Positions 50,467 to 62,613 of a stretch of 64,000 nt of DNA are shown piece after piece; within the stretch, counting starts at the first letter, position 1, and each line of letters opens with the position of its first letter. The DNA comes from Fidelibacterota bacterium (GTDB lineage Bacteria; Fidelibacterota; Marinisomatia; Marinisomatales; Marinisomataceae): assembly GCA_002701645.1 (NCBI GenBank), contig NZWP01000013.1, forward strand, positions 778 to 64,777, read 5' to 3'. The notes beneath the pieces were generated by a model that made no database searches, was not told the DNA's origin, and saw nothing but the letters and a program-made list of their open reading frames with translations. Position numbers and translations under genes: made by a program.

Positions 50467-51207
50467 ATGAAATTAATTCTTCTCCGTCATGGTGAAAGTC
50501 AATGGAACCTTGAAAATAGATTTACGGGATGGAAAGACGTTGATTTAACTGAAGACGGAATTAATGAAGCTAAATTTTCAGCCCAACAACTTCTTAAAAA
50601 GAATATTACTATAGATACCTTACATACATCATTACTTCTAAGATCAACCAATACGGCTAAAATTATAGCAGATATAATCAGTTTTAATAAAGAGAATATC
50701 AAATATGATTGGCGTCTGAATGAAAGGCACTATGGTGCTTTAGAAGGATTAAATAAATCCGAAACAGCAGCCAAATATGGTGAAGAACAAGTTCATATAT
50801 GGAGAAGAAGTTATGATATATCACCACCATTGCTTCAAGAGGATGATGATAGACATCCAAGATTTAATAAAAAATTCAAAAATATTGATGGGAAACTACC
50901 TAAGGGTGAAAGTTTAAAAAATGTTATTGATAGGTTAAACCCATTTTGGAAACAATACATAGATCACATAAAGAAAAATACAGGTAATCATTTAATTATT
51001 GCTCACAGCAATTCATTGAGGGCTATTATAAAAATATTAGATAAATTATCAGATGAAGCAATTATCTCAGTGAATATTCCTACTGGTGTTCCTTTAGTTT
51101 ATACATTAGATAAAAATTTAAATGTTATAAATAAAGAATATTTAATGGATGAGGATGAATTAAAAACAAAACAAAAAATAGTAGTAAATCAAGGAAAGGC
51201 AAAATGA
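50467..51207 (+). CDS. gpmA: 2,3-bisphosphoglycerate-dependent phosphoglycerate mutase
   Basis: 'LILLRHGESQWNLENRFTGW', 'LNERHYGALEGLNK', 'AHSNSLRA', 'IPTGVPLVY', C-terminal 'NQGKAK'. Confidence 0.9.
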   Translation: MKLILLRHGESQWNLENRFTGWKDVDLTEDGINEAKFSAQQLLKKNITIDTLHTSLLLRSTNTAKIIADIISFNKENIKYDWRLNERHYGALEGLNKSETAAKYGEEQVHIWRRSYDISPPLLQEDDDRHPRFNKKFKNIDGKLPKGESLKNVIDRLNPFWKQYIDHIKKNTGNHLIIAHSNSLRAIIKILDKLSDEAIISVNIPTGVPLVYTLDKNLNVINKEYLMDEDELKTKQKIVVNQGKAK

Positions 51208-52145
51208 ATTTAGATTTTTCAGATATTAAAGTTCTATTAATTGGCGATTTTATGATAGATCATTATATCTTCGGTACATCTACTAGAATGTCACCAGAAG
51301 CACCAGTGCCTGTAATAATTCCAGAAAAAGAATATTCAATTCCAGGAGGAGCTGGAAATGTAGCTATGAATTTAGCTGCATTAGGCGCAGATATAACATG
51401 TTTAGGGTGTGTTGGTAATGATATTTGGGGCAAAAGTCTACTTTCAATATTAGAAAACAAAGGCATTAAAACTGAAAAGATAGAAATAATTGACAACTAT
51501 CCCACTACCTTAAAACAAAGGATTTATTTAGATGATAAACAGGTTACTAGGCTAGATACTGAAAAGATAATTAATTGGAAGCTTGATGATATCGACACCA
51601 GAAACTTGGTCAAAAAATATGATATTATGATATTATCAGATTATAATAAAGGAGTCTTAAACTTTGAGTCGTTTCTTATCAATATTGAACGTTCATATGA
51701 AAGTCGTTTAAAACATATAATTGTTGATCCTAAAAAAGATGATTTTAGTTATTATACTGGAGCAAATATTATTACTCCAAATTTAAATGAGCTTGCAAAA
51801 GCTACGACAATAAAAATTCATGATAACCAATCAATTGTAGCGGCCTGCAAACATTTAATTGAAGAACATTCTTTTGAATATATAGTTGCCAAAAAAGGTG
51901 ACAAAGGGATGATAGTTGTAGGTAAAGATAATTTTATAAAACATATAGATGCTCATTTTGTCAGTACCCCAGATGTTACAGGAGCGGGGGATACTGTAAT
52001 TTCTGCTTTATCACTTGCATACGCTCAAACTAATGACATAGAGTTTGCATGTAATATTGCTAATGCAGCAGCAGCTATTGCTGTAAGAAAACCTGGTACT
52101 AATACCGTTACTATTAAAGAAATAAAAGAATTATTGGCTAAATAA
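51204..52145 (+). CDS. hldA: D-glycero-beta-D-manno-heptose-7-phosphate kinase (HldE domain I only, HldA-type)
   Basis: 'VLLIGDFMIDHYIFG...RMSPEAPVPV', 'PGGAGNVAMNLAALGA', 'TGAGDTV'. 313 aa with no fused adenylyltransferase domain. ATGA overlap with gpmA. Confidence 0.85.
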   Translation: MNLDFSDIKVLLIGDFMIDHYIFGTSTRMSPEAPVPVIIPEKEYSIPGGAGNVAMNLAALGADITCLGCVGNDIWGKSLLSILENKGIKTEKIEIIDNYPTTLKQRIYLDDKQVTRLDTEKIINWKLDDIDTRNLVKKYDIMILSDYNKGVLNFESFLINIERSYESRLKHIIVDPKKDDFSYYTGANIITPNLNELAKATTIKIHDNQSIVAACKHLIEEHSFEYIVAKKGDKGMIVVGKDNFIKHIDAHFVSTPDVTGAGDTVISALSLAYAQTNDIEFACNIANAAAAIAVRKPGTNTVTIKEIKELLAK

Positions 52146-52472
52146 TTTCTTTCTAATTTTTGTAGCAGAAATTTCACCAATATCAGAAGGAGGAACATGT
52201 TCAATAATATCATAACCTACACCTCTTCCATAATTTACAGACTCAATATCTGGTATAATTATTACTCTTACTCTTTTAGCGTCAATTAGATCTTTTAATT
52301 CTTTTTCAACATTGGCTTTAACATCTTGAGGGTTGTAGGGATTACTATCATTTTTACTTACCTCTCTGACACATATTAATATATTTTTATTTTGATTAAG
52401 ACGCTGGTCAATTAGCCATCTATGTCCATCATGCCATGGTTGCCACCTACCTATAAACATTGAGTATTTCAT
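52131..52472 (-). CDS. Minimal HxGH-motif nucleotidyltransferase (cytidylyltransferase/NMNAT-like, 113 aa)
   Basis: 'FIGRWQPWHDGH' (HxGH) near the N-terminus and 'ISATKIRKK' (ISxTxxR) near the C-terminus. Overlaps hldA tail to tail by 15 nt. Confidence 0.6.
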   Translation of the reverse strand: MKYSMFIGRWQPWHDGHRWLIDQRLNQNKNILICVREVSKNDSNPYNPQDVKANVEKELKDLIDAKRVRVIIIPDIESVNYGRGVGYDIIEHVPPSDIGEISATKIRKKLFSQ

Positions 52473-52497: not shown

Positions 52498-53778
52498 TTA
52501 AAAGCTTCGTGAAATTACGAGCCCTGTACCTATTTTTTTATTATCATTTGCTATAAATAATCCAATATTGAAATTATTATTTATTTCTTTACCAATAGAG
52601 ATTTGATATTGAAAACTATCACTAATACTAGTTCTTCTTCCAAATTTTATTTCATAATAATTGGATAGAATTTCACCATTAATACCAAAATGTATTACAT
52701 CAACTTTTTCAAGTGGCCAATTTGGATAGTCTTCTGGAACAGGCAATTTAATATATGGATTACCTAATATATAATTATTGTAACTCCATCCTAATCTATA
52801 ATGATAATGATAATAATATAATTTCTCAAAATGATTCGGATTTCTAAATTGATTTGATGTGACTAAATATTCAATCAAAAGATTAGTTTTCGGAATATAG
52901 TTTATTAACTCTAAACCCCATAGACCATCAAATCTATTTTTAAATCTTAATCCGCTAGTATCTTCAAAAATATGTTGATAGTAAAACTTGGTTAACCTTT
53001 CATTGTTTGTTTTTTCAAATATAAAATCCCATATCGCAACATGATTTCCTAGTGCATTTTGATGTGATCCTTCATGTGAATCAAATCCATCTCCTGCTGT
53101 AAATATTTTTAAAAAATCTTTAAAAGAGTGAGAAAAAGTTCGACCATCATAACCATCTCCATCTGAATATGCACCACCCCACATTGCTTCATGAACCAAT
53201 CCCAAGCTAATTCTATAGTTATTATTTTTTATGTGCATATAAATAAATTTCTCGTGAAGCAACGGAGCTTTAGTATAATAGTTTTCTTTTTCAAAAAAAC
53301 CATGTGCTATTCCACCTTCAAATGTTAGTTTGTTAAACTTTTCTATATTTTTTGATGTCACAAGACCAATTTTTGGCATAGGTCTTGCGTTGTGGCTTAT
53401 CAACATATGCCCAGAACTAAGGTTGTCATTTAAATAATTACTAAAATCTCTATAATATCTTCCCATGCGTAAAAATGTTTTATCTGAAAAATTGTATTTA
53501 ATAAATGATTCATTAAGATAAATTTTTTCTGAATCATCTTGAGCAAGAATATTAATTACATAAGTAGTTTTTGATGTTTTTAATTTCCAACTACCTCGAA
53601 AATCAAAATTAGCAGGTTTTATTCCAAAGTTATTTTTTTCTAACCACCAATAATCTGAATCTGTAGGATTTGATTTGATTTTAAATGTTAGTTTTTGTTC
53701 CTGAGCTACTAATGTTGTATTTAATACTAAAATCAACATTATTAGAAATGAGATTTGATTATTTTTTCTAATTAACAT
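52498..53778 (-). CDS. Capsule assembly protein Wzi-like outer-membrane beta-barrel
   Basis: Signal peptide. 'SSGHMLISHNARPMPKIGL', 'ALGNHVAIWDF', 'YYQHIFEDTSG' resemble Wzi-family motifs from memory. Ends with an aromatic residue ('SRSF'). Confidence 0.55.
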   Translation of the reverse strand: MLIRKNNQISFLIMLILVLNTTLVAQEQKLTFKIKSNPTDSDYWWLEKNNFGIKPANFDFRGSWKLKTSKTTYVINILAQDDSEKIYLNESFIKYNFSDKTFLRMGRYYRDFSNYLNDNLSSGHMLISHNARPMPKIGLVTSKNIEKFNKLTFEGGIAHGFFEKENYYTKAPLLHEKFIYMHIKNNNYRISLGLVHEAMWGGAYSDGDGYDGRTFSHSFKDFLKIFTAGDGFDSHEGSHQNALGNHVAIWDFIFEKTNNERLTKFYYQHIFEDTSGLRFKNRFDGLWGLELINYIPKTNLLIEYLVTSNQFRNPNHFEKLYYYHYHYRLGWSYNNYILGNPYIKLPVPEDYPNWPLEKVDVIHFGINGEILSNYYEIKFGRRTSISDSFQYQISIGKEINNNFNIGLFIANDNKKIGTGLVISRSF

Positions 53779-53783
53779 TGACT

Positions 53784-54239
53784 TTAATTTAACTGTTTAT
53801 AGCAATCTATAATTTTAGTAGTACATTCTTGGATTGTGAGTAGACCAGTATCTATTTTTACAGTCTTTGGATCGGTAGGCATTTCATAATCTTTTGCAAA
53901 ATAATCTTCTCTACCTCTTATTTCTGAAGTATGTAAATAAATTTCTAAAAAAGGAAACTCATTTTTTAGCTCATCTCGTAAAAATTTGTATGGTGCAACG
54001 ATAGAAACTACACAAAGATAATTTTTATTTGCTAAAAATCTCATAATAGAAATCGCAGTAGATATATTTTTAATTCTACCTTCTTTAGAATAATCCTTAT
54101 TCTTATTTATACTTCTCAAATCATCGCCATCTAAATTAATAACATCCAAATCTGGTTCTTCTTTTTGAATAGATTTTATAAAAGAATTAGCCAGCGTAGT
54201 TTTCCCACTTCCAGGTTGGCCTGTTAACCAAATAATCAT
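53784..54239 (-). CDS. Adenylyl-sulfate (APS) kinase-like protein, short form
   Basis: 'IIWLTGQPGSGKTTLA', 'LDGDDLRS', 'KEGRIKNI', 'SIVAPYKFLRD', 'FLEIYLHTS'. It lacks the CysC N-terminal extension and most of the lid segment. Confidence 0.75.
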   Translation of the reverse strand: MIIWLTGQPGSGKTTLANSFIKSIQKEEPDLDVINLDGDDLRSINKNKDYSKEGRIKNISTAISIMRFLANKNYLCVVSIVAPYKFLRDELKNEFPFLEIYLHTSEIRGREDYFAKDYEMPTDPKTVKIDTGLLTIQECTTKIIDCYKQLN

Positions 54240-54400
54240 ACTATTCTCCTTTCTGATATAAAATTATCAACACAGTATTTAATTCCATCTTCTAGTGATG
54301 TAAAATTTGTAAATCCAGCTTTTTTAATTTTTGTCATATCTCCCTCAGTAAAATTTTGATATTTACCAATAAATCTACCAGCCCCTGTAATTAAAATCAT
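54236..54400 (-). pseudogene. 54-codon ORF: head-plus-tail relic of an NAD-dependent epimerase/dehydratase
   Basis: Hand translation gives MILITGAGRFIGKYQNFTEGDMTKIKKAGFTNFTSLEDGIKYCVDNFISERRIV*. The Rossmann start 'ILITGAGRFIG' is joined in frame to a typical SDR C-terminal tail ('..K..GF......LEDGI...V.NF'). It is below the track's size cutoff. Its TGA overlaps the APS kinase ATG (ATGA). Confidence 0.5.
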
Positions 54401-54407
54401 AATAATT

Positions 54408-56120
54408 TCACTTTAATAAACTATTATTTGAATCTTGTTTTTTTATATAAAATTTCCAATCCATAACTTCAATAGCTGTATGTTTTCTGATATCAAAGGA
54501 TTGAAATTCTTGATTAGGTAAAACTCTTTTTTCAATGCCGTTTACTAATAAACCCATTGGCATAATAAAATTATCATTGACATTATTCCATTTGTAATAA
54601 AAGCTTGAATCTGTTTGATAATATTCAAGTGCAGGTTGATTTGGGGTATAAAAATATTGTTCTGAAAAATATGAATAGTCATCGCCGGTTTTCTCTTTAA
54701 CTTTATCAAAGAAATCTTCTGTGCTTACATGACCTTTTGCATTTTCAACCATAAATTCTTTTAGTATTGCAAACCAAGCAGGGTCATCATTTATAACACT
54801 TCTTAAAGTATGCATTACCCAAGCACCTTTCATATAAGTATCACCATTTAAAGCCCAATAATTTTCATTTTCTGGACCTACAATAGGTATTTTGTTTTGA
54901 ATCCTTGCTTTAATACTCTTTAAGTAATCAACACTTACTGGATAGCTATTGAATTTATCTTCAAAATATAATGCTTCAGAATAGACTTGTAATCCTTCAT
55001 GAATCCAAATATGTGTTGGATCGATTGCAGTAACACTGTTTCCAAACCATTCATGCCCACTCTCATGTATAATTAAGGGATCAATCACTCCATACATAGC
55101 CCAACTGTCGCTCCTGACACCATTATAAATACTAAATCCGTTGCCATAGGTTACAGCCGACTGATGCTCCATGCCTAGATATGGTGCTTCAATCAGTTTA
55201 TATCCATCATCCCACCATTGGTAGTCCCCAAAATATTTTTCATAGAAACGAATAATTTCTTTTGATTGCACGAAGTAGTTTTGTGCAACTTCTTCATTAT
55301 AGTCTAAAACATAATGGTTCATATAATGCGTTGTATCTTCTTTTATAAATGTATCTTGAACAGCAACATAATTTCCAATTTGAACAGAGATATTATAATT
55401 ATTAATCGGATTGCTAACAAACCACTCATAGGTAGTTTTATTATTTTCTTTTTCTATCACACTCTTTAGTTGACCATTAGCAACGCTCACTAAATTAGAT
55501 GGTACAGTAAAAGCCATTCTAACGCTATCTGGCTCTTCAGAAATATGATCTTTATTAGGCCACCAAATTCTTGCCCCTTCACCCTCACAAGAAACTGCTA
55601 CCCAATCTCTATCATTCTTATCTTTAGCCCATGTAAATCCTCCTGACCAAGGTGGATTGTCAGCGCTTTGAGGTGTCCCATTATAATGAACTGTGAAATC
55701 AAATAATGTATCTTTATTTATAGGCTGGTTAAAGACTACCATCACAGCATCTTCTTCTCGACTATATTCAACAGAACTGTTTTGATGAATAATTTTTGTA
55801 ATATTTAAATTTTTAGCTAGATCTACTTGTAAAGTATCAATATCATTAAGGCTTTTTGCTTTGATTGTTACAAATCCATCGATTGATTTTTTTTCAATAT
55901 CAAAATCTATATTAATATCATAATATGTTACATCGTATGAGCTACGATATTCATTTAAAAACCCCATCAAATAATTATTGCGAGTTAATTCAGGTGTATC
56001 TGTCTGAGAGCCATGAGGCCTAGATTCATTTGTAATCGAATTGAGCTGATAATTAGCTAATAGCGCAATGACTGCATAGCCAATTACCATAAAGATAATT
56101 ATTTTATATTTTTTTTTCAT
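54408..56120 (-). CDS. M1-family zinc metallopeptidase, membrane-anchored
   Basis: N-terminal TM 'IIIFMVIGYAVIALLA', exopeptidase-like 'GMEHQS', zinc site 'HESGHEWFGN...WIHEGLQVYSE' (HExxH-x18-E). The start at 'MKKKYK' (56120) is preferred; 56153 is possible. Confidence 0.85.
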   Translation of the reverse strand: MKKKYKIIIFMVIGYAVIALLANYQLNSITNESRPHGSQTDTPELTRNNYLMGFLNEYRSSYDVTYYDINIDFDIEKKSIDGFVTIKAKSLNDIDTLQVDLAKNLNITKIIHQNSSVEYSREEDAVMVVFNQPINKDTLFDFTVHYNGTPQSADNPPWSGGFTWAKDKNDRDWVAVSCEGEGARIWWPNKDHISEEPDSVRMAFTVPSNLVSVANGQLKSVIEKENNKTTYEWFVSNPINNYNISVQIGNYVAVQDTFIKEDTTHYMNHYVLDYNEEVAQNYFVQSKEIIRFYEKYFGDYQWWDDGYKLIEAPYLGMEHQSAVTYGNGFSIYNGVRSDSWAMYGVIDPLIIHESGHEWFGNSVTAIDPTHIWIHEGLQVYSEALYFEDKFNSYPVSVDYLKSIKARIQNKIPIVGPENENYWALNGDTYMKGAWVMHTLRSVINDDPAWFAILKEFMVENAKGHVSTEDFFDKVKEKTGDDYSYFSEQYFYTPNQPALEYYQTDSSFYYKWNNVNDNFIMPMGLLVNGIEKRVLPNQEFQSFDIRKHTAIEVMDWKFYIKKQDSNNSLLK

Positions 56121-56301
56121 AATAGGTAGTTGATTGGAACATATTTTTAGCAAAAATAATATAGTACAGCAGAATACAAAATAAAAACCAAAGAACTATA
56201 GCAAAAGCTTCCTTTATTACAAATAATATATAGGCAATAGCAAAATATACTATCCATTTTATCCAGTTAGGTTGGTTCCATAGCTTTAATAATAAATTCA
56301 T
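56104..56301 (-). CDS. Small two-helix membrane protein (65 aa)
   Basis: 'WIKWIVYFAIAYILFVI' and 'IVLWFLFCILLYYIIFA' form two hydrophobic helices. ATGA overlap with the upstream sulfotransferase stop and a 17-nt overlap with the peptidase start. No family recognised. Confidence 0.4.
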   Translation of the reverse strand: MNLLLKLWNQPNWIKWIVYFAIAYILFVIKEAFAIVLWFLFCILLYYIIFAKNMFQSTTYYEKKI

Positions 56302-57014
56302 CGTTCTGCAAAATAATACAATTTGTTATAATAATCTAATGCTTCATCATAAATTGATTGATATTTTTTATCTAACTCGCTTTGATTTGCTGAAAACTTC
56401 TGAAAATGAGTCGTGGTAATAACATTATCATACCAATGCTTCCACCAAATACCATCTTGAGGATGATTTCCTTTCTGCCATTTCAACATAGAAATATCAA
56501 ATTCTAAATTAATACTTCTGCACCACTGCGATAATATTTTTTCAGGGTTATTAAGTAGAATATTGGAATCAACCACAATAAATTTTTTACCAATACTATC
56601 TAAATATCTCATGATTTTATATTGCTGAGGATATCCCAGCTCATCTACATGATTGAGAGTATTTTTCTTCACATAAGAGTTTATTACATCTTTAGGATGG
56701 CGAATTAAAATACAGTTTTCAAAATTTTTAATCCAATGGATGTTATTTAAGTCAATTAAATGATGTGCCATATGTTTCTGATACCAATGTTCTTTGCCAT
56801 TAGGTATTTCAGAACTAAGACTTGTAACTACATCATCATATTTATTAGGATAATGCTCAATAATTTCTTTATACATTGGATGTTTTAACTCCTGCTCTTT
56901 AAGGTAATAAGCATAAAAAGGTTCATCTGAAACAAATGAATCACTTCTAGATGACCAAGATCTCATAAGTGCAGTAGATATATTTCTTGGGCCTGACCAA
57001 CAAGCAATTTTCAT
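56298..57014 (-). CDS. PAPS-dependent sulfotransferase-like protein
   Basis: N-terminal 5'-PSB-like loop 'WSGPRNISTALMRS' and 3'-PB-like motif 'LIRHPKDVINSY' (compare RxPKDVxVSYY of sulfotransferases). 238 aa. Confidence 0.65.
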   Translation of the reverse strand: MKIACWSGPRNISTALMRSWSSRSDSFVSDEPFYAYYLKEQELKHPMYKEIIEHYPNKYDDVVTSLSSEIPNGKEHWYQKHMAHHLIDLNNIHWIKNFENCILIRHPKDVINSYVKKNTLNHVDELGYPQQYKIMRYLDSIGKKFIVVDSNILLNNPEKILSQWCRSINLEFDISMLKWQKGNHPQDGIWWKHWYDNVITTTHFQKFSANQSELDKKYQSIYDEALDYYNKLYYFAER

Positions 57015-57015
57015 G

Positions 57016-57924
57016 TTAACCTATATAGTTTTGAATTTCTTTATTGTACAGCATTCTAATTTTATTAACCAAAGAATCAGAATTAGTCGATTCTAATTTT
57101 CTGCCTTCTAATTGTGAGACAGGAATAATACCTGCAAAGGTACCTGTTACAAAAGCCTCATTACAGTTTTTAATATCTTCGAATGTAAAATTAGTTTCAG
57201 AACATGCTATATTATTTTGATTACATACTAAAATAGCTTTTCCTCTTGTAATTCCATTTAAACAATACTCTCCGGTAGAAGTTAAAACTCTATCATTTTT
57301 AATAAAAAATAGATTAGTAGAATTGCATGTACTAATATTACCATTCATATCATTCATTATTCCTTCATCGTATCCAAGCTTATTTGCCTCTATGCTTGCT
57401 AAAATACAATTCAGTTTGCTTAGAGTATTATAGTGTGGACTTAATATACTCTCATTAGGTCTAATATTGGGAACTCTACCGATATTTACACCCTTTATAT
57501 ATGTGTTCGGGTCTGTTTGTTTATATTCAGGAATAATTACCAAATTAATTGGGCCTACATTTGCATTAGGATTCTGATATGGAGTAATTTTATCTCCTCT
57601 AGATACAACTAAACGAATGTGTATTTGATCATCCATCTTATTCTTATCTAAGACTTTATTTATTTCATAAATTATTTCTTGTTTTGAGTAAGGGATATCT
57701 AATGAGATACCTTGTGCACTTGCAAATAATCTATCTAAGTGATCTTCAATAAACACTAGTTTTGATTGATGAAGTCTAATACCTTCCCAAACACCATCTC
57801 CTAGTAAAAATCCACTATCAAAAACAGAAATTTTTGCTTCGCTTCTATGGAATAATTGTCCATTAATATTTATATAGATAGCCTGGTTAGCAGGGTTTGA
57901 TATGTAAGAATGTGAGCCCATCAC
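57016..57924 (-). CDS. Class IV (branched-chain/D-amino-acid type) PLP aminotransferase
   Basis: 'SVFDSGFLLGDGVWEGIR', 'IRLVVSRG', 'LSKLNCILASIEANKLGYDEGIM.D..GNI', 'NGITRG', 'EAFVTGT'. Confidence 0.8.
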   Translation of the reverse strand: MMGSHSYISNPANQAIYININGQLFHRSEAKISVFDSGFLLGDGVWEGIRLHQSKLVFIEDHLDRLFASAQGISLDIPYSKQEIIYEINKVLDKNKMDDQIHIRLVVSRGDKITPYQNPNANVGPINLVIIPEYKQTDPNTYIKGVNIGRVPNIRPNESILSPHYNTLSKLNCILASIEANKLGYDEGIMNDMNGNISTCNSTNLFFIKNDRVLTSTGEYCLNGITRGKAILVCNQNNIACSETNFTFEDIKNCNEAFVTGTFAGIIPVSQLEGRKLESTNSDSLVNKIRMLYNKEIQNYIG

Positions 57925-60743: not shown

Positions 60744-60817
60744 GTGGGCCCACAGGGACTTGAACCCCGAACCTGCGGATTATGAGTCCGTTGCTCTAAC
60801 CAATTGAGCTATGGGCC
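60744..60817 (-). tRNA. tRNA with CAT anticodon (elongator Met or lysidine-modified Ile2)
   Basis: The reverse complement folds as GGGCCCA-TA-GCTC-AATTGGTTA-GAGC-A-ACGGA-CTCATAA-TCCGC-AGGTT-CGGGG-TTCAAGT-CCCTG-TGGGCCC-A. No encoded CCA. Confidence 0.85.
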
Positions 60818-60831
60818 CTCTGATTATATTT

Positions 60832-61407
60832 TTAGAAACCTTTTTCAAACACTTCAAGCATAATATGAGATAAAGTAACATGAGACTCTTGAATTCGAGC
60901 AGTATCATTTGATGGGACACAGATATTTATATCTGCTATATTCTTACATAAACCTCCATTTTCTCCGGTAAAAATGATTGATGTTATACCTATTTTTTTA
61001 GCCATTTTTAGTGCATTAACTACACTTTCAGAATTACCCGAAGTACTATATGCAATCAATATATCTCCCTTTGAACCCATACCAGATAGTTCTCTAGAAA
61101 AAACATCATCATAGCCATAATCATTTGCTATTGCTGTCATAGAACTAAGGTTCGATCCCAAAACAACACCTTTTAAAGATTTCCGTTCAATTTTAAATCT
61201 TCCTGTTAATTCCGCAGCAATATGCTGCGCATCAGCCGCACTTCCACCATTACCACAAAAAAAGATAAAATTATTGTTTTTAATAGCTAGGCTTATAGAT
61301 TGAATTGCTTTGGATAAATTTTTAATAATCTCTTCATTTTGAAGGATTTCCTCTTTAACTGAAATAGAGGTCTTAAGAAGAATTTTAATAGTATTAATAT
61401 CGTTCAT
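60832..61407 (-). CDS. gmhA: Phosphoheptose isomerase (sedoheptulose-7-phosphate isomerase)
   Basis: 'FFCGNGGSAADAQHIAAELTGRF', 'TAIANDYGYDDVFSREL', 'STSGNSESV', 'TARIQESH'. Confidence 0.9.
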   Translation of the reverse strand: MNDINTIKILLKTSISVKEEILQNEEIIKNLSKAIQSISLAIKNNNFIFFCGNGGSAADAQHIAAELTGRFKIERKSLKGVVLGSNLSSMTAIANDYGYDDVFSRELSGMGSKGDILIAYSTSGNSESVVNALKMAKKIGITSIIFTGENGGLCKNIADINICVPSNDTARIQESHVTLSHIMLEVFEKGF

Positions 61408-61449
61408 TTTTAAATTTATAAAGAATAAGAGATTTCTCCTACAGGCTAT

Positions 61450-62613
61450 TTATGATTCTAGCAATGTATCTATGCTTGAGAACACTTCCTCAAAATTATT
61501 GTATAAATCATCATTCAATAGGAAGACTTTTTTCATATTGCTTGAAGGGAAAGAATCGGGATAGGGTAAAAAGCGATTATAAGTAATTGATTGTTTTTTA
61601 AACATTATAGTTTTGCAATCAAGCATGTTACTTACATGGACCATGAATGTATCATTAGTAATTACCTTTTTACATGAGCTAGCAATATCAAATATGTCTG
61701 GGATGCTAGTTTTCCCATGTAAATTTACAATTTTATCACCAAATTTTTCTTCTATCCTATTACATATATGTTTTTCATATAAAGAATGTCCAGTTAAGAT
61801 TATCTTTTGGCTGCTGTTTGATAAAATGTATTTAATTATTTTGTAGTAATAAATTTCTGGTAGATTCCTGCTCTTTTTTCTAGAGCCACAATTAACTATA
61901 ATATGATTACTGTAATCAATATTTCCCCACTTAAAAAAGAAAGTATCAAGATTTATAGAAGAATGATAAAGTGTAGCCGATGAATTTGTAGTTAGCTTAA
62001 TAATTTCATGATTTAAATGAAAGTCATGTATACTTTCATTGTGATTGATTTGAAGAAGTTGGTCATAAAATTTATTTCCTATATAATTAAAGAAAGGTGA
62101 GGAGTTTTCTAAATTTCCCAAAACACCAATTTTATTTTTTGATCTAATAAATCGTACTACCGAATCTTCCAAAAGAATTTCTTTTGAAAAAACAGGATTA
62201 ATAATTTCATCACACTGCATTCTATTAATTTGTGACAGTATTTTAAATCTATAAAAAATATTTATTTTGAATTTTACCCTATCAATAACAAAATAATGTT
62301 TTACATTTTTAAGATTTTTGACAAAACTTTCTTGAAGATTTGAAACTATATATAATACCTCGTCTTTATTATTGGCATTTATGTAGTCAATAAATATTAT
62401 TGCATCTCCTAAACCATCTAAGCGGACACAAACCTTTTTAATAGTTTTTTTATTTTTTAAGGGTATGATTTTTAAAACAGCCAAGAGAAGGCTATCACAA
62501 ATTAAAAAAATTAGTTCATTAATTTTTTTTAACACTCGCTTGACAGAATCTTTTAGCCTATCTACGATAAAGCGTGCACCATTATCTGAATTTATTTTAT
62601 TTGTTTGCTTCAT
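61450..62613 (-). CDS. GT9-like glycosyltransferase (heptosyltransferase family candidate)
   Basis: 'RLDGLGDAIIF' and 'LHGKTSIPDIFDIASSCKKVITNDTFMVHVSNML' resemble the two GT9 signature regions. Adjacent to gmhA. Confidence 0.55.
   Translation of the reverse strand: MKQTNKINSDNGARFIVDRLKDSVKRVLKKINELIFLICDSLLLAVLKIIPLKNKKTIKKVCVRLDGLGDAIIFIDYINANNKDEVLYIVSNLQESFVKNLKNVKHYFVIDRVKFKINIFYRFKILSQINRMQCDEIINPVFSKEILLEDSVVRFIRSKNKIGVLGNLENSSPFFNYIGNKFYDQLLQINHNESIHDFHLNHEIIKLTTNSSATLYHSSINLDTFFFKWGNIDYSNHIIVNCGSRKKSRNLPEIYYYKIIKYILSNSSQKIILTGHSLYEKHICNRIEEKFGDKIVNLHGKTSIPDIFDIASSCKKVITNDTFMVHVSNMLDCKTIMFKKQSITYNRFLPYPDSFPSSNMKKVFLLNDDLYNNFEEVFSSIDTLLES

What the first reader, a model, noticed from the sequence alone, without database searches (positions are those of the whole stretch)
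53784..57924. PAPS-supply plus sulfotransferase module of unassigned function inside the polysaccharide locus
Six co-directional minus-strand reading frames are packed with gaps or overlaps of only 1-17 nt, including ATGA overlaps at 56298-56301 and 54236-54239:
- A class IV aminotransferase (57016-57924).
- A 238-aa protein (56298-57014) with both PAPS-binding signatures of sulfotransferases ('SGPRNISTALMRS' and 'LIRHPKDVINSY').
- A 65-aa two-helix membrane peptide.
- A membrane-anchored M1 zinc peptidase.
- A 54-codon epimerase relic.
- A 151-aa APS-kinase-like protein.

The APS kinase keeps the P-loop, 'LDGDDLR' and 'SIVAPY' segments. The lid region of CysC (DPKGLYKKARAGE..FTGID as I remember it) is replaced by roughly half as many unrelated residues.

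An APS kinase next to a sulfotransferase implies local PAPS production. The sulfated target could be a glycan from the surrounding locus or an amino compound made by the aminotransferase. I cannot map the aminotransferase + sulfotransferase + peptidase combination onto a described pathway, so it is the best candidate here for an undescribed system.
Basis: partly seen in the sequence, partly recalled or inferred. Interest (0 to 1): 0.65.

Follow-up and report, generated by a model that had tools for sequence, protein, structure and literature searches.

The report
Sulfotransferase with lysine-less aminotransferase partner
A sulfate-transferring enzyme and an aminotransferase look-alike that has lost its catalytic lysine form a gene pair of unknown function, found side by side in most of 78 genomes checked across many bacterial phyla and one archaeon; in this abundant ocean bacterium the pair sits next to what is probably its own supply of activated sulfate.

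Summary
The six minus-strand ORFs, both ATGA overlaps and the quoted motifs are real. The window comes from a marine Marinimicrobia (SAR406) genome.

The six genes are not one module. They break into separate units:
- **Core pair.** The 238-aa Sulfotransfer_5 protein has a high-confidence sulfotransferase fold, closest to the CurM/OLS and TPST sulfotransferases. The 302-aa "class IV aminotransferase" has Asn166 where the catalytic lysine should be. The two genes are adjacent on the same strand in 64 of 78 testable genomes from many phyla, in both gene orders. None of 54 partners aligned keeps the lysine (33 Asn, 20 His, 1 Ala). Five natural fusions exist.
- **Kinase pair.** The 151-aa kinase belongs to an abundant ~154-aa APS-kinase subfamily missing 18 lid residues. 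Its constant partner is a 113-aa NMNAT-like nucleotidyltransferase at 52131-52472, outside the finding and here split off by Wzi.
- **Lineage-specific genes.** The two-helix peptide and the M1 peptidase accompany the core pair only in Marinimicrobia.

In Marinimicrobia the kinase pair stays within 8 kb of the core pair in three different arrangements. In one other lineage a canonical ATP-sulfurylase/APS-kinase fusion follows the core pair. Local PAPS supply is therefore plausible.

I found no link to glycan synthesis. The acceptor is unknown, and I found no publication on the pair.

The parts
57016..57924 (-). Fold-type-IV (class IV aminotransferase-like) protein without the catalytic lysine: Asn166 at that site, Lys170 four residues later. 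The usual partner of the sulfotransferase.
   Evidence: Pfam Aminotran_4 E=2e-40. It scores below every NCBIfam BCAT/DAAT/ADCL cut-off. Best solved relative is 7z79, 'Aminotransferase, class 4' (E=1.5e-60), with its variant 9j32, which carries Lys at the aligned site. In an alignment of 54 sulfotransferase-linked homologues the site is Asn in 33, His in 20 and Ala in 1, and never Lys. The phosphate-binding Arg65 is kept in all but two rows of the alignment, and the Glu/Asp of 'DE/DD' is kept by eye in the printed alignment. Adjacent on the same strand to the sulfotransferase in 64 of 78 genomes.
56298..57014 (-). Sulfotransfer_5 (PF19798) sulfotransferase, the presumed catalytic PAPS-dependent subunit.
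   Evidence: PF19798 E=1e-46. AlphaFold2 model pLDDT 96.4. Foldseek best hits are CurM ST, TPST1/2, Stf0 and HS 3-OST. A family profile hits CurM ST at 5e-10 and OLS ST at 1.5e-8, and 'wsgPRnlSTal' aligns with CurM 'LSSPRSGSTLL'. T14, D30, K80, W179 and Y195 are invariant. R10, S13, E31, H85, R105 and S113 are near-invariant. It aligns over its full length with the cyr-cluster sulfotransferase: 29% identity, E=1e-35.
56104..56301 (-). 65-aa two-helix membrane peptide, overlapping the sulfotransferase stop by ATGA. A Marinimicrobia-specific companion.
   Evidence: ATGA overlap. No family hit. Conserved at 66-95% identity and always between the sulfotransferase and the M1 peptidase in Marinimicrobia loci. 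Absent from the loci of other phyla.
54408..56153 (-). M1 zinc aminopeptidase with a hydrophobic N-terminal stretch (probable membrane anchor). The likely start is the ATG at 56120. A Marinimicrobia-specific companion of the pair.
   Evidence: Peptidase_M1 E=1e-17 and Peptidase_M1_N E=5e-8. 'HESGHEW...WIHEG' is read directly in the translation. It moves with the pair as one block in all three Marinimicrobia arrangements. It is not found next to the pair in other phyla.
54236..54400 (-). 54-codon ORF, probably an internally deleted remnant of an SDR sugar epimerase. It fills the space between the peptidase and the kinase.
   Evidence: Weak match to the HldD C-terminus, E=1.7e-4. A Rossmann-like 'ILITGAGRFIGK' N-terminus aligns weakly with window epimerases. 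Homologous ORFs of 59-64% identity lie directly upstream of the kinase in L138 and L171.
53784..54239 (-). Short-lid member of the APS-kinase family (~154-aa marine subfamily), the presumed 3'-kinase that makes the sulfuryl donor.
   Evidence: APS_kinase E=5e-18, but only profile positions 4-110. It scores below the NCBIfam cut-offs. Solved APS kinases match residues 2-105, E down to 8e-15. The family gives 2956 hits with E<=1e-5; the 120 best listed are nearly all 149-164 aa (one is 202 aa). The P-loop, LDGDxxR, R55 and N58 are kept and 18 lid residues are deleted. 44 of 46 informative loci carry the sulfotransferase block within 8 kb.
52498..53778 (-). Wzi-like capsule assembly gene. Not part of the system; here it separates the kinase from its usual partner gene.
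   Evidence: Caps_assemb_Wzi E=3e-21. It lies between kinase and nucleotidyltransferase in the window. Four further loci (L098, L120, L141, L165) have Wzi directly after the kinase, and in L098 and L165 the nucleotidyltransferase is seen beyond it.
52131..52472 (-). 113-aa NMNAT-like nucleotidyltransferase ('GRWQPWHDGH' ... 'ISATKIRK'), the regular partner of the short kinase.
   Evidence: NCBIfam NMNAT subfamily E=4e-9 and TIGR00125 domain 27.8 bits against a cut-off of 27.7. Archaeal NMNAT structures match at E~6e-4. It follows the kinase directly and overlaps it in 65 of 69 testable loci.

Best explanation
The region holds two separate two-gene units that Marinimicrobia keep close together, plus lineage-specific passengers.

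**Unit 1 (57924-56298), the conserved core.** This is a two-protein sulfotransferase system. The Sulfotransfer_5 protein is the catalytic subunit. It binds a 3'-phosphoadenosine-type donor, most likely PAPS, through its 'GPRNxST' loop and its 'R..P....S' motif. Its catalytic set resembles that of CurM/TPST sulfotransferases. Its partner keeps the class IV aminotransferase fold, the cofactor phosphate pocket, the acidic residue that pairs with the pyridine nitrogen, and a BCAT-type carboxylate arginine. It has replaced the Schiff-base lysine with Asn (or His in the other subtype). It therefore cannot work as an ordinary transaminase. I infer that it either binds and presents a small carboxylate-bearing acceptor (amino-acid-like or oxo-acid-like), or processes the sulfated product.

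**Unit 2 (54239-53784 plus 52472-52131).** This is a lid-less APS-kinase homologue and a 113-aa nucleotidyltransferase. I infer that together they make the donor: nucleotidyl transfer to a small anion, then 3'-phosphorylation, giving PAPS if the anion is sulfate.

**Passengers.** The 65-aa membrane peptide and the M1 peptidase are Marinimicrobia-specific companions. The 54-codon ORF is a relic. Wzi is an insertion.

**Shown:** folds, motifs, loss of the lysine, and the conservation patterns.
**Inferred:** donor identity, physical partnership of the two core proteins, the role of the nucleotidyltransferase, and the class of acceptor.

The system is not a glycan-modifying part of the polysaccharide locus.
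For: - **Sulfotransferase fold and motifs:**
- **A family member in a known sulfation pathway.** The cyr-type cluster sulfotransferase on plasmid CP070234 is PF19798. It aligns over its full length with the window protein and is followed by cysC. The CyrJ/CyrN precedent is described in PMC2885083.
- **Pair conservation.** 64 of 78 testable genomes from Marinimicrobia, Alpha- and Gammaproteobacteria, Verrucomicrobiota, Planctomycetota, Gemmatimonadota, Actinomycetota, Acidobacteriota, Myxococcota and a Poseidoniales archaeon, in both gene orders.
- **Five natural fusion proteins** carrying PF19798 plus PF01063.
- **Lysine lost in every partner aligned,** while Arg65 is kept in all but two rows and, by eye, the Glu/Asp as well. 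The best solved relative, 7z79, shares the Asn.
- **Strong purifying selection.** Concatenated type-B pairs are 61-65% identical across phyla.
- **Kinase and nucleotidyltransferase adjacent** in 65 of 69 loci. The kinase family's lid motif is invariant, so it is not decaying.
- **The two units stay linked.** They lie within 8 kb in 44 of 46 informative loci, in three arrangements: 21 with the block upstream on the same strand, 18 as kinase-nucleotidyltransferase-pair, and 5 divergent.
- **Independent case.** In L012 the pair is followed, with overlap, by a PUA_2 + ATP-sulfurylase + APS_kinase fusion.
Against: - No biochemical datum exists for any of the four proteins. Donor and acceptor are inferred.
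- Across the 80 genome loci, PAPS-synthesis genes are next to the pair only in L011 and L012. The link to the kinase could therefore be lineage synteny.
- Two kinase loci, plus L095-L097, sit in capsule loci with no sulfotransferase detected within 5-8 kb.
- L010, a Marinimicrobia genome, has the pair without the kinase.
- The kinase has lost 18 lid residues including the 'FTGID' segment. From my own knowledge of APS-kinase structures, that segment covers the APS adenine, so its substrate may not be APS.
- The nucleotidyltransferase resembles NMNAT rather than ATP sulfurylase.
- Ten ST5 loci have no aminotransferase-like gene within 6 kb.
- I have no cofactor-binding data for the solved relative 7z79, and could not retrieve its paper.
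Confidence: 0.45

Rival explanations
1. Independent units, with synteny only. The lysine-less protein and the sulfotransferase use the cell's general PAPS pool. The short kinase and the nucleotidyltransferase belong to capsule biosynthesis and make a different 3'-phospho-nucleotide donor. The model is Campylobacter Cj1415-Cj1418, which make CDP-phosphoramidate 3'-phosphate for capsule decoration.
For: - The kinase pair occurs inside capsule loci (Capsule_synth, NeuB, CTP_transf_3, Wzz) with no sulfotransferase detected nearby: L095-L097, L156, L159.
- In the window it is flanked by Wzi and polysaccharide genes.
- The lid that covers the APS adenine is deleted.
- Outside Marinimicrobia and L012 the core pair has no PAPS genes next to it.
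Against: - Three different gene arrangements keep the two units within 8 kb in 44 of 46 loci. In 18 of them the four genes are consecutive and co-directional.
- L012 places a canonical PAPS synthase in the same position.
- I saw no homologues of the glutamine kinase or amidohydrolase of the phosphoramidate pathway among the annotated neighbours.
- The phosphosulfate-contacting Arg42, Arg55 and Asn58 are invariant.
Confidence: 0.25
2. A single six-gene pathway in which a working class IV aminotransferase makes an amino compound, or the surrounding locus supplies a glycan. The sulfotransferase then sulfates it with locally made PAPS, and the M1 peptidase takes part.
For: - Tight packing and ATGA overlaps.
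- The block of pair, peptide and M1 peptidase moves as a unit in Marinimicrobia.
- L012 has a different aminopeptidase (M24) after the pair and the PAPS synthase.
Against: - The catalytic lysine is absent in all partners.
- The protein scores below all BCAT/DAAT/ADCL cut-offs.
- The peptidase and the peptide are absent from the pair's neighbourhood in every other phylum.
- The peptidase appears to be membrane-anchored (read by eye), whereas I saw no signal peptide in the pair by eye.
- In most lineages no glycan gene accompanies the pair.
Confidence: 0.1
3. The aminotransferase-like protein is an inert pseudoenzyme or a regulator, and the sulfotransferase acts alone on an unrelated acceptor. 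The adjacency would then reflect co-regulation only.
For: - Loss of the catalytic lysine.
- Ten ST5 loci lack the partner within 6 kb.
- The cyr-cluster family member works without such a partner.
Against: - Very high cross-phylum conservation of the partner, including the cofactor phosphate and pyridine-nitrogen residues.
- Two distinct and consistent substitutions (Asn or His), each tied to one gene order.
- Natural fusions exist.
Confidence: 0.1

Closest known systems
CyrJ/CyrN (cylindrospermopsin) and SxtN/SxtO (saxitoxin): a tailoring sulfotransferase with its own APS kinase
   Same: A cyr-type cluster sulfotransferase is a PF19798 member that aligns over its full length with the window protein (29% identity, E=1e-35). 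It is followed by cysC. Reviews describe CyrN and SxtO as the local PAPS supply for CyrJ and SxtN (PMC2885083).
   Different: Those genes sit in toxin clusters with PKS/NRPS and use a full-length APS kinase. They have no aminotransferase-like partner and no mini nucleotidyltransferase. Here the pair is a stand-alone chromosomal unit found in many phyla.
CurM and OLS 'activating' sulfotransferase domains (PDB 4gbm, 4gox)
   Same: The nearest solved structures by both sequence profile (5e-10, 1.5e-8) and fold (E=2.6e-7). They share the 'PR.GST' loop and the 'RHP....S' motif.
   Different: Those are domains of polyketide synthases acting on carrier-protein-bound beta-hydroxyacyl groups. From my own knowledge, the sulfate then leaves during decarboxylative elimination by a thioesterase. 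Here the protein is free-standing and its neighbour has a PLP-enzyme fold.
PDB 7z79 / 9j32, 'Aminotransferase, class 4'
   Same: About 50% identical to the window protein over residues 4-279, with the same Asn at the catalytic-lysine position. 9j32 carries Lys at that position.
   Different: Only a structure is on record. I could not retrieve its paper or any function. The source organism, which I recall as Variovorax paradoxus, and its gene context are unverified.
NodH with NodPQ, and RaxST with RaxPQ: bacterial sulfotransferases with a dedicated PAPS synthase
   Same: The logic of a sulfotransferase with its own ATP sulfurylase and APS kinase (my own knowledge). L012 shows exactly this next to the pair.
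   Different: Those use canonical CysDN/CysC-type enzymes and known acceptors (Nod factor, the RaxX peptide). The Marinimicrobia version uses a lid-less kinase and a 113-aa NMNAT-like protein.
Campylobacter jejuni Cj1415/Cj1416 (capsule methyl phosphoramidate pathway)
   Same: A nucleotidyltransferase and a kinase that I recall being CysC-like, adjacent in a capsule locus, contributing to a 3'-phospho-nucleoside diphosphate donor (PMC11800397).
   Different: That pathway also needs a glutamine kinase and an amidohydrolase, which I did not see here. Its nucleotide is CDP. No sequence comparison with Cj1415 could be made.
Lysine-less PMP-dependent sugar dehydratases (ColD, E1)
   Same: PLP-fold enzymes in which the Schiff-base lysine is replaced by His and which eliminate a leaving group next to a ketimine (my own knowledge). 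The type-B partners carry His at this site.
   Different: Those belong to fold type I and act on nucleotide sugars. Here the fold is type IV, and in the window's subtype the residue is Asn. This is an analogy only.

Membership tests
Sulfotransfer_5 (PF19798) / PAPS-dependent sulfotransferases | Profile score above the curated cut-off | tested here: met
   159.7 bits against a cut-off of 23.2, covering residues 1-230.
Sulfotransfer_5 (PF19798) / PAPS-dependent sulfotransferases | Sulfotransferase fold | tested here: met
   Model pLDDT 96.4. The top 17 Foldseek hits are all sulfotransferases, with TM-scores up to 0.62.
Sulfotransfer_5 (PF19798) / PAPS-dependent sulfotransferases | 5'-phosphosulfate loop and 3'-phosphate motif conserved | tested here: met
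   'WSGPRNxST' and 'R105..P107.....S113' are near-invariant in 69 diverse members and align with the CurM motifs.
Sulfotransfer_5 (PF19798) / PAPS-dependent sulfotransferases | Binds PAPS and transfers sulfate | not testable with these tools
   Needs binding or 35S-PAPS assays.
Class IV (fold type IV) aminotransferases: BCAT, DAAT, ADCL | Pfam Aminotran_4 domain | tested here: met
   139.6 bits against a cut-off of 28.5.
Class IV (fold type IV) aminotransferases: BCAT, DAAT, ADCL | Catalytic Schiff-base lysine | tested here: not met
   Asn166 aligns with the Lys of 5mqz 'IKSLNYLN'. No Lys among the 54 linked homologues aligned.
Class IV (fold type IV) aminotransferases: BCAT, DAAT, ADCL | Reaches an equivalog or subfamily cut-off for BCAT, DAAT or ADCL | tested here: not met
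   Best is NF006185 at 217.9 bits against a cut-off of 363. All 18 models hit score below their cut-offs.
Class IV (fold type IV) aminotransferases: BCAT, DAAT, ADCL | Cofactor phosphate Arg and the acidic residue facing the pyridine nitrogen | tested here: met
   Arg65 is kept in 55 of the 57 alignment rows. The Glu/Asp in 'DE/DD' is kept by eye in the printed alignment. 'GITR' and 'TGT' are read in the sequence.
APS kinase (CysC; PF01583, TIGR00455) | Profile score above the curated cut-off | tested here: inconclusive
   The Pfam cut-off is met (66.1 against 21.1) but only for profile positions 4-110. The NCBIfam equivalog-domain and subfamily cut-offs are not met (74.4 against 138.7; 64.3 against 127).
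APS kinase (CysC; PF01583, TIGR00455) | P-loop, LDGDxxR, and the Arg/Asn that contact phosphosulfate | tested here: met
   G12, K13, T15, D37, G38, D39, R42, R55 and N58 are invariant when aligned with two canonical APS kinases.
APS kinase (CysC; PF01583, TIGR00455) | Mobile lid segment 'AR.GEIK.FTGID' | tested here: not met
   18 residues are deleted. The replacement 'EIRGRE(D/N)(Y/F)FAKDYE' is conserved across the subfamily.
APS kinase (CysC; PF01583, TIGR00455) | Phosphorylates APS to PAPS | not testable with these tools
   Needs an enzyme assay or complementation of a cysC mutant.
Nucleotidyltransferase superfamily (NMNAT / cytidylyltransferase-like), for 52131-52472 | HxGH and ISxTxxR motifs, and a profile match | tested here: inconclusive
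   'WHDGH' and 'ISATKIR' are read in the sequence. TIGR00125 domain scores 27.8 against a cut-off of 27.7. The NMNAT models score far below their cut-offs. Pfam CTP_transf_like scores 19.4, below 21.
M1 zinc aminopeptidases | Both M1 domains and HExxH...E zinc ligands | tested here: met
   PF01433 and PF17900 score above their cut-offs. 'HESGHEW' and 'WIHEG' are read in the translation.
   Only the aminotransferase-like gene co-occurs across phyla. The peptide, the peptidase and the kinase are confined to Marinimicrobia. The kinase is absent in L010.

The most novel reading that the evidence does not exclude
Marinimicrobia carry a self-contained four-gene sulfation system with two unusual halves. 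In the first, a 113-aa NMNAT-like nucleotidyltransferase and a lid-less APS-kinase homologue together act as a minimal, previously unrecognised PAPS synthase, with the small protein standing in for ATP sulfurylase. In the second, the CurM-like sulfotransferase installs sulfate as a leaving group, and the lysine-less PLP-fold partner then eliminates or replaces it on an amino- or oxo-acid-like metabolite. The second half would be common to the many genomes, from many phyla, that carry the pair.
Probability: 0.15. Interest if true: 0.85.

Novelty: new variant of a known kind. Interest (0 to 1): 0.6.

Why it matters
- **A widespread unknown.** The sulfotransferase and its lysine-less partner form a gene pair found in at least several hundred species-level genomes. 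These include abundant ocean lineages (SAR406, a Poseidoniales archaeon, Rhodobacterales) and soil lineages (Udaeobacter, Gemmatimonadota). I could not find any experiment or paper assigning it a function.
- **Misleading annotation.** Databases name the two proteins 'branched-chain amino acid aminotransferase' and 'HAD family hydrolase'. This can inflate amino-acid-metabolism predictions in metagenomic models.
- **A likely new metabolite or reaction.** A PLP-fold protein that has systematically replaced its lysine, yet is conserved at over 60% identity between phyla, suggests an undescribed sulfated metabolite or a sulfate-activated reaction.
- **A possible alternative route to PAPS.** The kinase and nucleotidyltransferase pair may be a different route to a PAPS-like donor in streamlined marine genomes. 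This matters for marine organic-sulfur budgets.

Tried and rejected
- **Literature.** Searches for Sulfotransfer_5, PF19798, At5g27410/At3g05190, 'class IV aminotransferase' with sulfotransferase, and Variovorax/7Z79 found no functional study. My recollection that plants carry a fused version (BCAT-like proteins) could not be verified and is not used as evidence.
- **Kinase structure.** A single-sequence AlphaFold run gave pLDDT 59 and was unusable. That used one of the two prediction jobs, so I could not model the kinase or nucleotidyltransferase properly, nor any complex.
- **Unavailable or failed tools.** The afdb50 fold library was unavailable. The first genome scan with the 69-sequence alignment failed for lack of a conserved stretch and was redone with a 17-sequence subset.
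- **A third conserved neighbour.** Clustering of about 830 flanking ORFs found only lineage-specific housekeeping genes: MsrA, ArgG, IlvA, Tmk, a DacC-like protein, an S9 peptidase and an MFS transporter, identified by eye. High-GC shadow ORFs contaminated the naive ORF calls, for example cluster 2.
- **Plasmids.** One distant hit only, which turned out to be a cyr-type toxin cluster.
- **Sulfate-activation genes in the window.** I looked for sat/cysDN/cysH. The gene annotations retrieved for about 59 kb of the 64-kb window (roughly 1-59.7 kb; the last ~4 kb was not annotated) show housekeeping genes (lpxA-D, bamA, dnaG, uvrA and others) and, from ~45.5 kb, the polysaccharide locus, but none of those genes. 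The rest of the genome could not be searched.
- **Other PAPS synthases.** A tblastn search with the L012 PAPS synthase against the other 79 loci found nothing.
- **Paper not held.** PMC5938747, on the Cj1415 kinase, is not in the library.

Full report

Yes. The six minus-strand ORFs lie at the reported coordinates. The two ATGA stop/start overlaps are visible in the DNA.

Profile searches confirm the family calls:

| ORF | Family | E-value |
|---|---|---|
| 56298-57014 | Sulfotransfer_5 (PF19798) | 1e-46 |
| 57016-57924 | Aminotran_4 | 2e-40 |
| 53784-54239 | APS_kinase | 5e-18 (first two-thirds of the profile only) |
| 54408-56153 | Peptidase_M1 + M1_N | 1e-17, 5e-8 |

The 54-codon ORF matches the C-terminus of ADP-heptose epimerase only weakly and has a Rossmann-like N-terminus. 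'Relic' is therefore reasonable but thinly supported.

The source is a marine Candidatus Marinimicrobia (SAR406) genome. Identical proteins in the same gene order occur on TARA and other ocean contigs. Roughly the first 45 kb of the window is housekeeping. The polysaccharide locus starts at about 45.5 kb. No sat, cysDN or cysH appears in the gene annotations retrieved, which reach about 59.7 kb; the last ~4 kb was not annotated.

**2. The sulfotransferase**

The family has 2534 representatives at 50% clustering. The 150 best-scoring are almost all stand-alone proteins of about 240 aa or fragments. In 69 diverse members the loop 'WSGPRNxST', Glu31, Lys80, His85 and 'R105-x-P107...S113' are invariant or nearly so.

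An AlphaFold2 model built on that alignment has pLDDT 96.4. Its best structural matches are all sulfotransferases: CurM ST, TPST1/2, Stf0 and heparan sulfate 3-OST.

A family profile finds the CurM and olefin-synthase 'activating' sulfotransferases at 5e-10 and 1.5e-8. It aligns the N-terminal loop with CurM 'SSPRSGSTLL'.

A distant family member sits in a cylindrospermopsin-type toxin cluster on a Dolichospermum plasmid. It shares 29% identity over its full length with the window protein (E=1e-35) and is directly followed by cysC. This matches the CyrJ/CyrN precedent for a sulfotransferase with its own PAPS supply (PMC2885083).

NCBI names the Marinimicrobia protein 'HAD family hydrolase', which looks like a misannotation.

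**3. The 'aminotransferase' is not an ordinary one**

Its best solved relative is 7z79, 'Aminotransferase, class 4' (E=1.5e-60). Both 7z79 and the window protein have Asn where branched-chain and D-amino-acid aminotransferases have the Schiff-base lysine. The second entry, 9j32, is the same protein with Lys at that site.

I aligned 54 homologues that lie next to a Sulfotransfer_5 gene. None has the lysine.

- **Type A** (the window's type, gene order partner→sulfotransferase): 'N-(S/T)-x-S-K-L-N-C'.
- **Type B** (gene order sulfotransferase→partner): 'I-H-H-x-N-L'.

The phosphate-binding arginine is kept in all but two rows of the alignment. The acidic residue that faces the pyridine nitrogen, the 'GITR' and 'TGT' phosphate loops, and a BCAT-type 'H-x-R' carboxylate arginine are also retained; I read these by eye from the alignment and the sequences.

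The protein scores below every NCBIfam cut-off for BCAT, DAAT and ADCL. It is therefore a conserved lysine-less member of the fold, not a decaying gene. Concatenated type-B pairs are 61-65% identical between Verrucomicrobiota, Planctomycetota, Gemmatimonadota and Gammaproteobacteria.

**4. What is co-conserved**

A scan of one genome per species returned 598 confirmed sulfotransferase loci. I examined 80 of them.

- The lysine-less partner is directly adjacent on the same strand in 64 of 78 testable loci. It is upstream in 42 and downstream in 22.
- The carriers include Marinimicrobia, low-GC marine Alphaproteobacteria SAGs, Rhodobacterales, Sphingomonadales, Chthoniobacterales/Udaeobacter, Phycisphaerales, Gemmatimonadota, Ilumatobacter, a Thermoanaerobaculia MAG, a Polyangiaceae MAG and a Poseidoniales archaeon.
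- Four more loci have the partner within 1-2.4 kb of the sulfotransferase, or convergent with it.
- A profile of concatenated pairs retrieved five natural fusion proteins of 549-625 aa. One is on a 212-kb bacterial contig.
- No third gene is conserved. Recurrent neighbours are lineage-specific housekeeping genes.
- The 65-aa peptide and the M1 peptidase accompany the pair only in Marinimicrobia.

It is strongly contradicted for the two-gene core.

**5. The kinase and its real partner**

The 151-aa protein belongs to an abundant marine family: 2956 hits with E<=1e-5, and the 120 best listed are nearly all 149-164 aa (one is 202 aa).

Compared with two canonical APS kinases it keeps the P-loop, LDGDxxR, Arg55, Asn58 and the 'SP(Y/H)' strand. 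It lacks 18 residues of the lid, including 'AR.GEIK.FTGID'. The replacement, 'EIRGRE(D/N)(Y/F)FAKDYE', is invariant in the family, so this is a derived design and not decay.

In other contigs the kinase is followed directly by a 113-aa NMNAT-like nucleotidyltransferase, with the two genes overlapping. This holds in 65 of 69 testable metagenomic loci. In the window, and probably in four other loci where Wzi directly follows the kinase, Wzi has been inserted between them.

The general logic is a nucleotidyl transfer followed by 3'-phosphorylation. From my own knowledge, Sat/CysC, CoaD/CoaE and Campylobacter Cj1416/Cj1415 all follow it. The last set yields CDP-phosphoramidate 3'-phosphate (PMC11800397).

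**6. Are the two units functionally linked?**

*Evidence for a link.* Within Marinimicrobia, 44 of 46 informative kinase loci carry the block of partner, sulfotransferase, peptide and peptidase within 8 kb. Three different arrangements occur:

| Arrangement | Loci |
|---|---|
| Block upstream of the kinase, same strand | 21 |
| Kinase–nucleotidyltransferase–partner–sulfotransferase, consecutive | 18 |
| Divergent | 5 |

Persistence through rearrangement argues for selection and not just inherited order.

Independently, in L012 (an uncultured bacterium; a neighbouring gene carries a Por_Secre_tail sorting domain, which from my own knowledge is typical of Bacteroidota and their relatives) the pair is followed, with overlap, by a PUA_2 + ATP-sulfurylase + APS-kinase fusion and then an M24 aminopeptidase.

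*Evidence against a link.*
- Two loci, plus L095-L097, place the kinase pair in a capsule locus with no sulfotransferase detected nearby.
- L010 has the core block without the kinase.
- No other phylum shows PAPS genes next to the pair.

**7. Most likely mechanism**

*Shown:*
- a CurM/TPST-like sulfotransferase with intact nucleotide motifs;
- an obligate lysine-less PLP-fold partner;
- a lid-less APS-kinase homologue with a mini nucleotidyltransferase;
- linkage of the two units in this lineage.

*Inferred:*
- the donor is PAPS, or a close analogue made by the kinase pair;
- the two core proteins act together on a small carboxylate-bearing metabolite;
- the partner either presents the acceptor or acts on the sulfated product.

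The nearest solved relatives of the sulfotransferase use sulfate as a leaving group. This makes a sulfation-then-elimination scheme attractive, but it is speculative. I found nothing that supports glycan sulfation by this pair.

**8. Verdict**

This is a new variant of a known kind, namely a sulfotransferase with a dedicated donor supply. Its distinctive feature is a widespread, uncharacterised partnership with a lysine-less aminotransferase-fold protein. I found no publication describing the pair.

Noticed in passing
window 52131-52472 (-) and 53784-54239 (-); L091-L097, L098-L177: A short-lid APS-kinase homologue (~154 aa) and a 113-aa NMNAT-like nucleotidyltransferase form an overlapping gene pair in 65 of 69 marine loci. 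In the window, and probably in four other loci where Wzi directly follows the kinase, Wzi separates them. This could be a minimal route to a 3'-phospho-nucleotide donor.
   Followed up: partly
L012:5079-11323: An uncultured bacterium carries partner, sulfotransferase, a PUA_2 + ATP-sulfurylase + APS-kinase fusion (overlapping the sulfotransferase stop), an M24 aminopeptidase P and a class III aminotransferase in one co-directional run. An aminopeptidase of a different family sits downstream of the pair, as the M1 peptidase does in Marinimicrobia.
   Followed up: partly
L178:7989-9917 (CP070234.1, Dolichospermum plasmid): A cylindrospermopsin-type cluster (PKS, two amidohydrolases, a 2OG oxygenase, a MATE transporter) lies on a conjugative cyanobacterial plasmid. 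Its sulfotransferase belongs to PF19798 and is followed by cysC.
   Followed up: partly
L107, L110, L124, L133, L136, L145, L168, L170 (contig ends about 150-450 nt after the kinase): Many metagenome contigs stop just after the kinase, within or at the end of the nucleotidyltransferase gene, at the junction where the aminotransferase-like gene begins in other contigs. This suggests a strain-variable breakpoint in this locus.
   Followed up: no
window 52498-53778 (-); L098-L177: The Wzi-like gene occupies several positions relative to the same neighbours: between peptidase and kinase, between kinase and nucleotidyltransferase, after the peptidase, or several kb downstream of the kinase pair. 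Its identity to the window copy ranges from 27% to 88%, so it is far more variable than its neighbours.
   Followed up: no
window 54236-54400 (-); L138, L171: The 54-codon ORF with a Rossmann-like start and an epimerase-like end is conserved at 59-64% identity directly upstream of the kinase in other contigs. Its 3' end carries an AGGAG that could be the kinase's ribosome-binding site.
   Followed up: partly
window 50467-52145 (+), 60832-62613 (-): Heptose-pathway-like genes are scattered in the locus: a PfkB kinase, a SIS (GmhA-like) protein and a GT9 heptosyltransferase. I found no intact HldD-type epimerase or HAD-type GmhB. A histidine-phosphatase (GpmA-like) gene overlaps the PfkB start by 4 nt and might replace the phosphatase.
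   Followed up: no
window 60744-60818 (-): A tRNA-Met gene sits inside the polysaccharide locus, between the GT2 glycosyltransferase and the SIS gene.
   Followed up: no
L041, L055, L058, L062, L064, L081, L084, L087, L038, L067: Ten Sulfotransfer_5 loci, mostly Rhodobacterales, lack the aminotransferase-like gene within 6 kb. In several of the Rhodobacterales loci an MsrA-like gene lies just upstream on the opposite strand. They may be a partner-independent paralogue.
   Followed up: no
P0001, P0045, P0054, P0119; P0271, P0273, P0283 and others: Public annotation names the sulfotransferase 'HAD family hydrolase' and the lysine-less partner 'branched-chain amino acid aminotransferase'. Both names are probably misleading.
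   Followed up: partly
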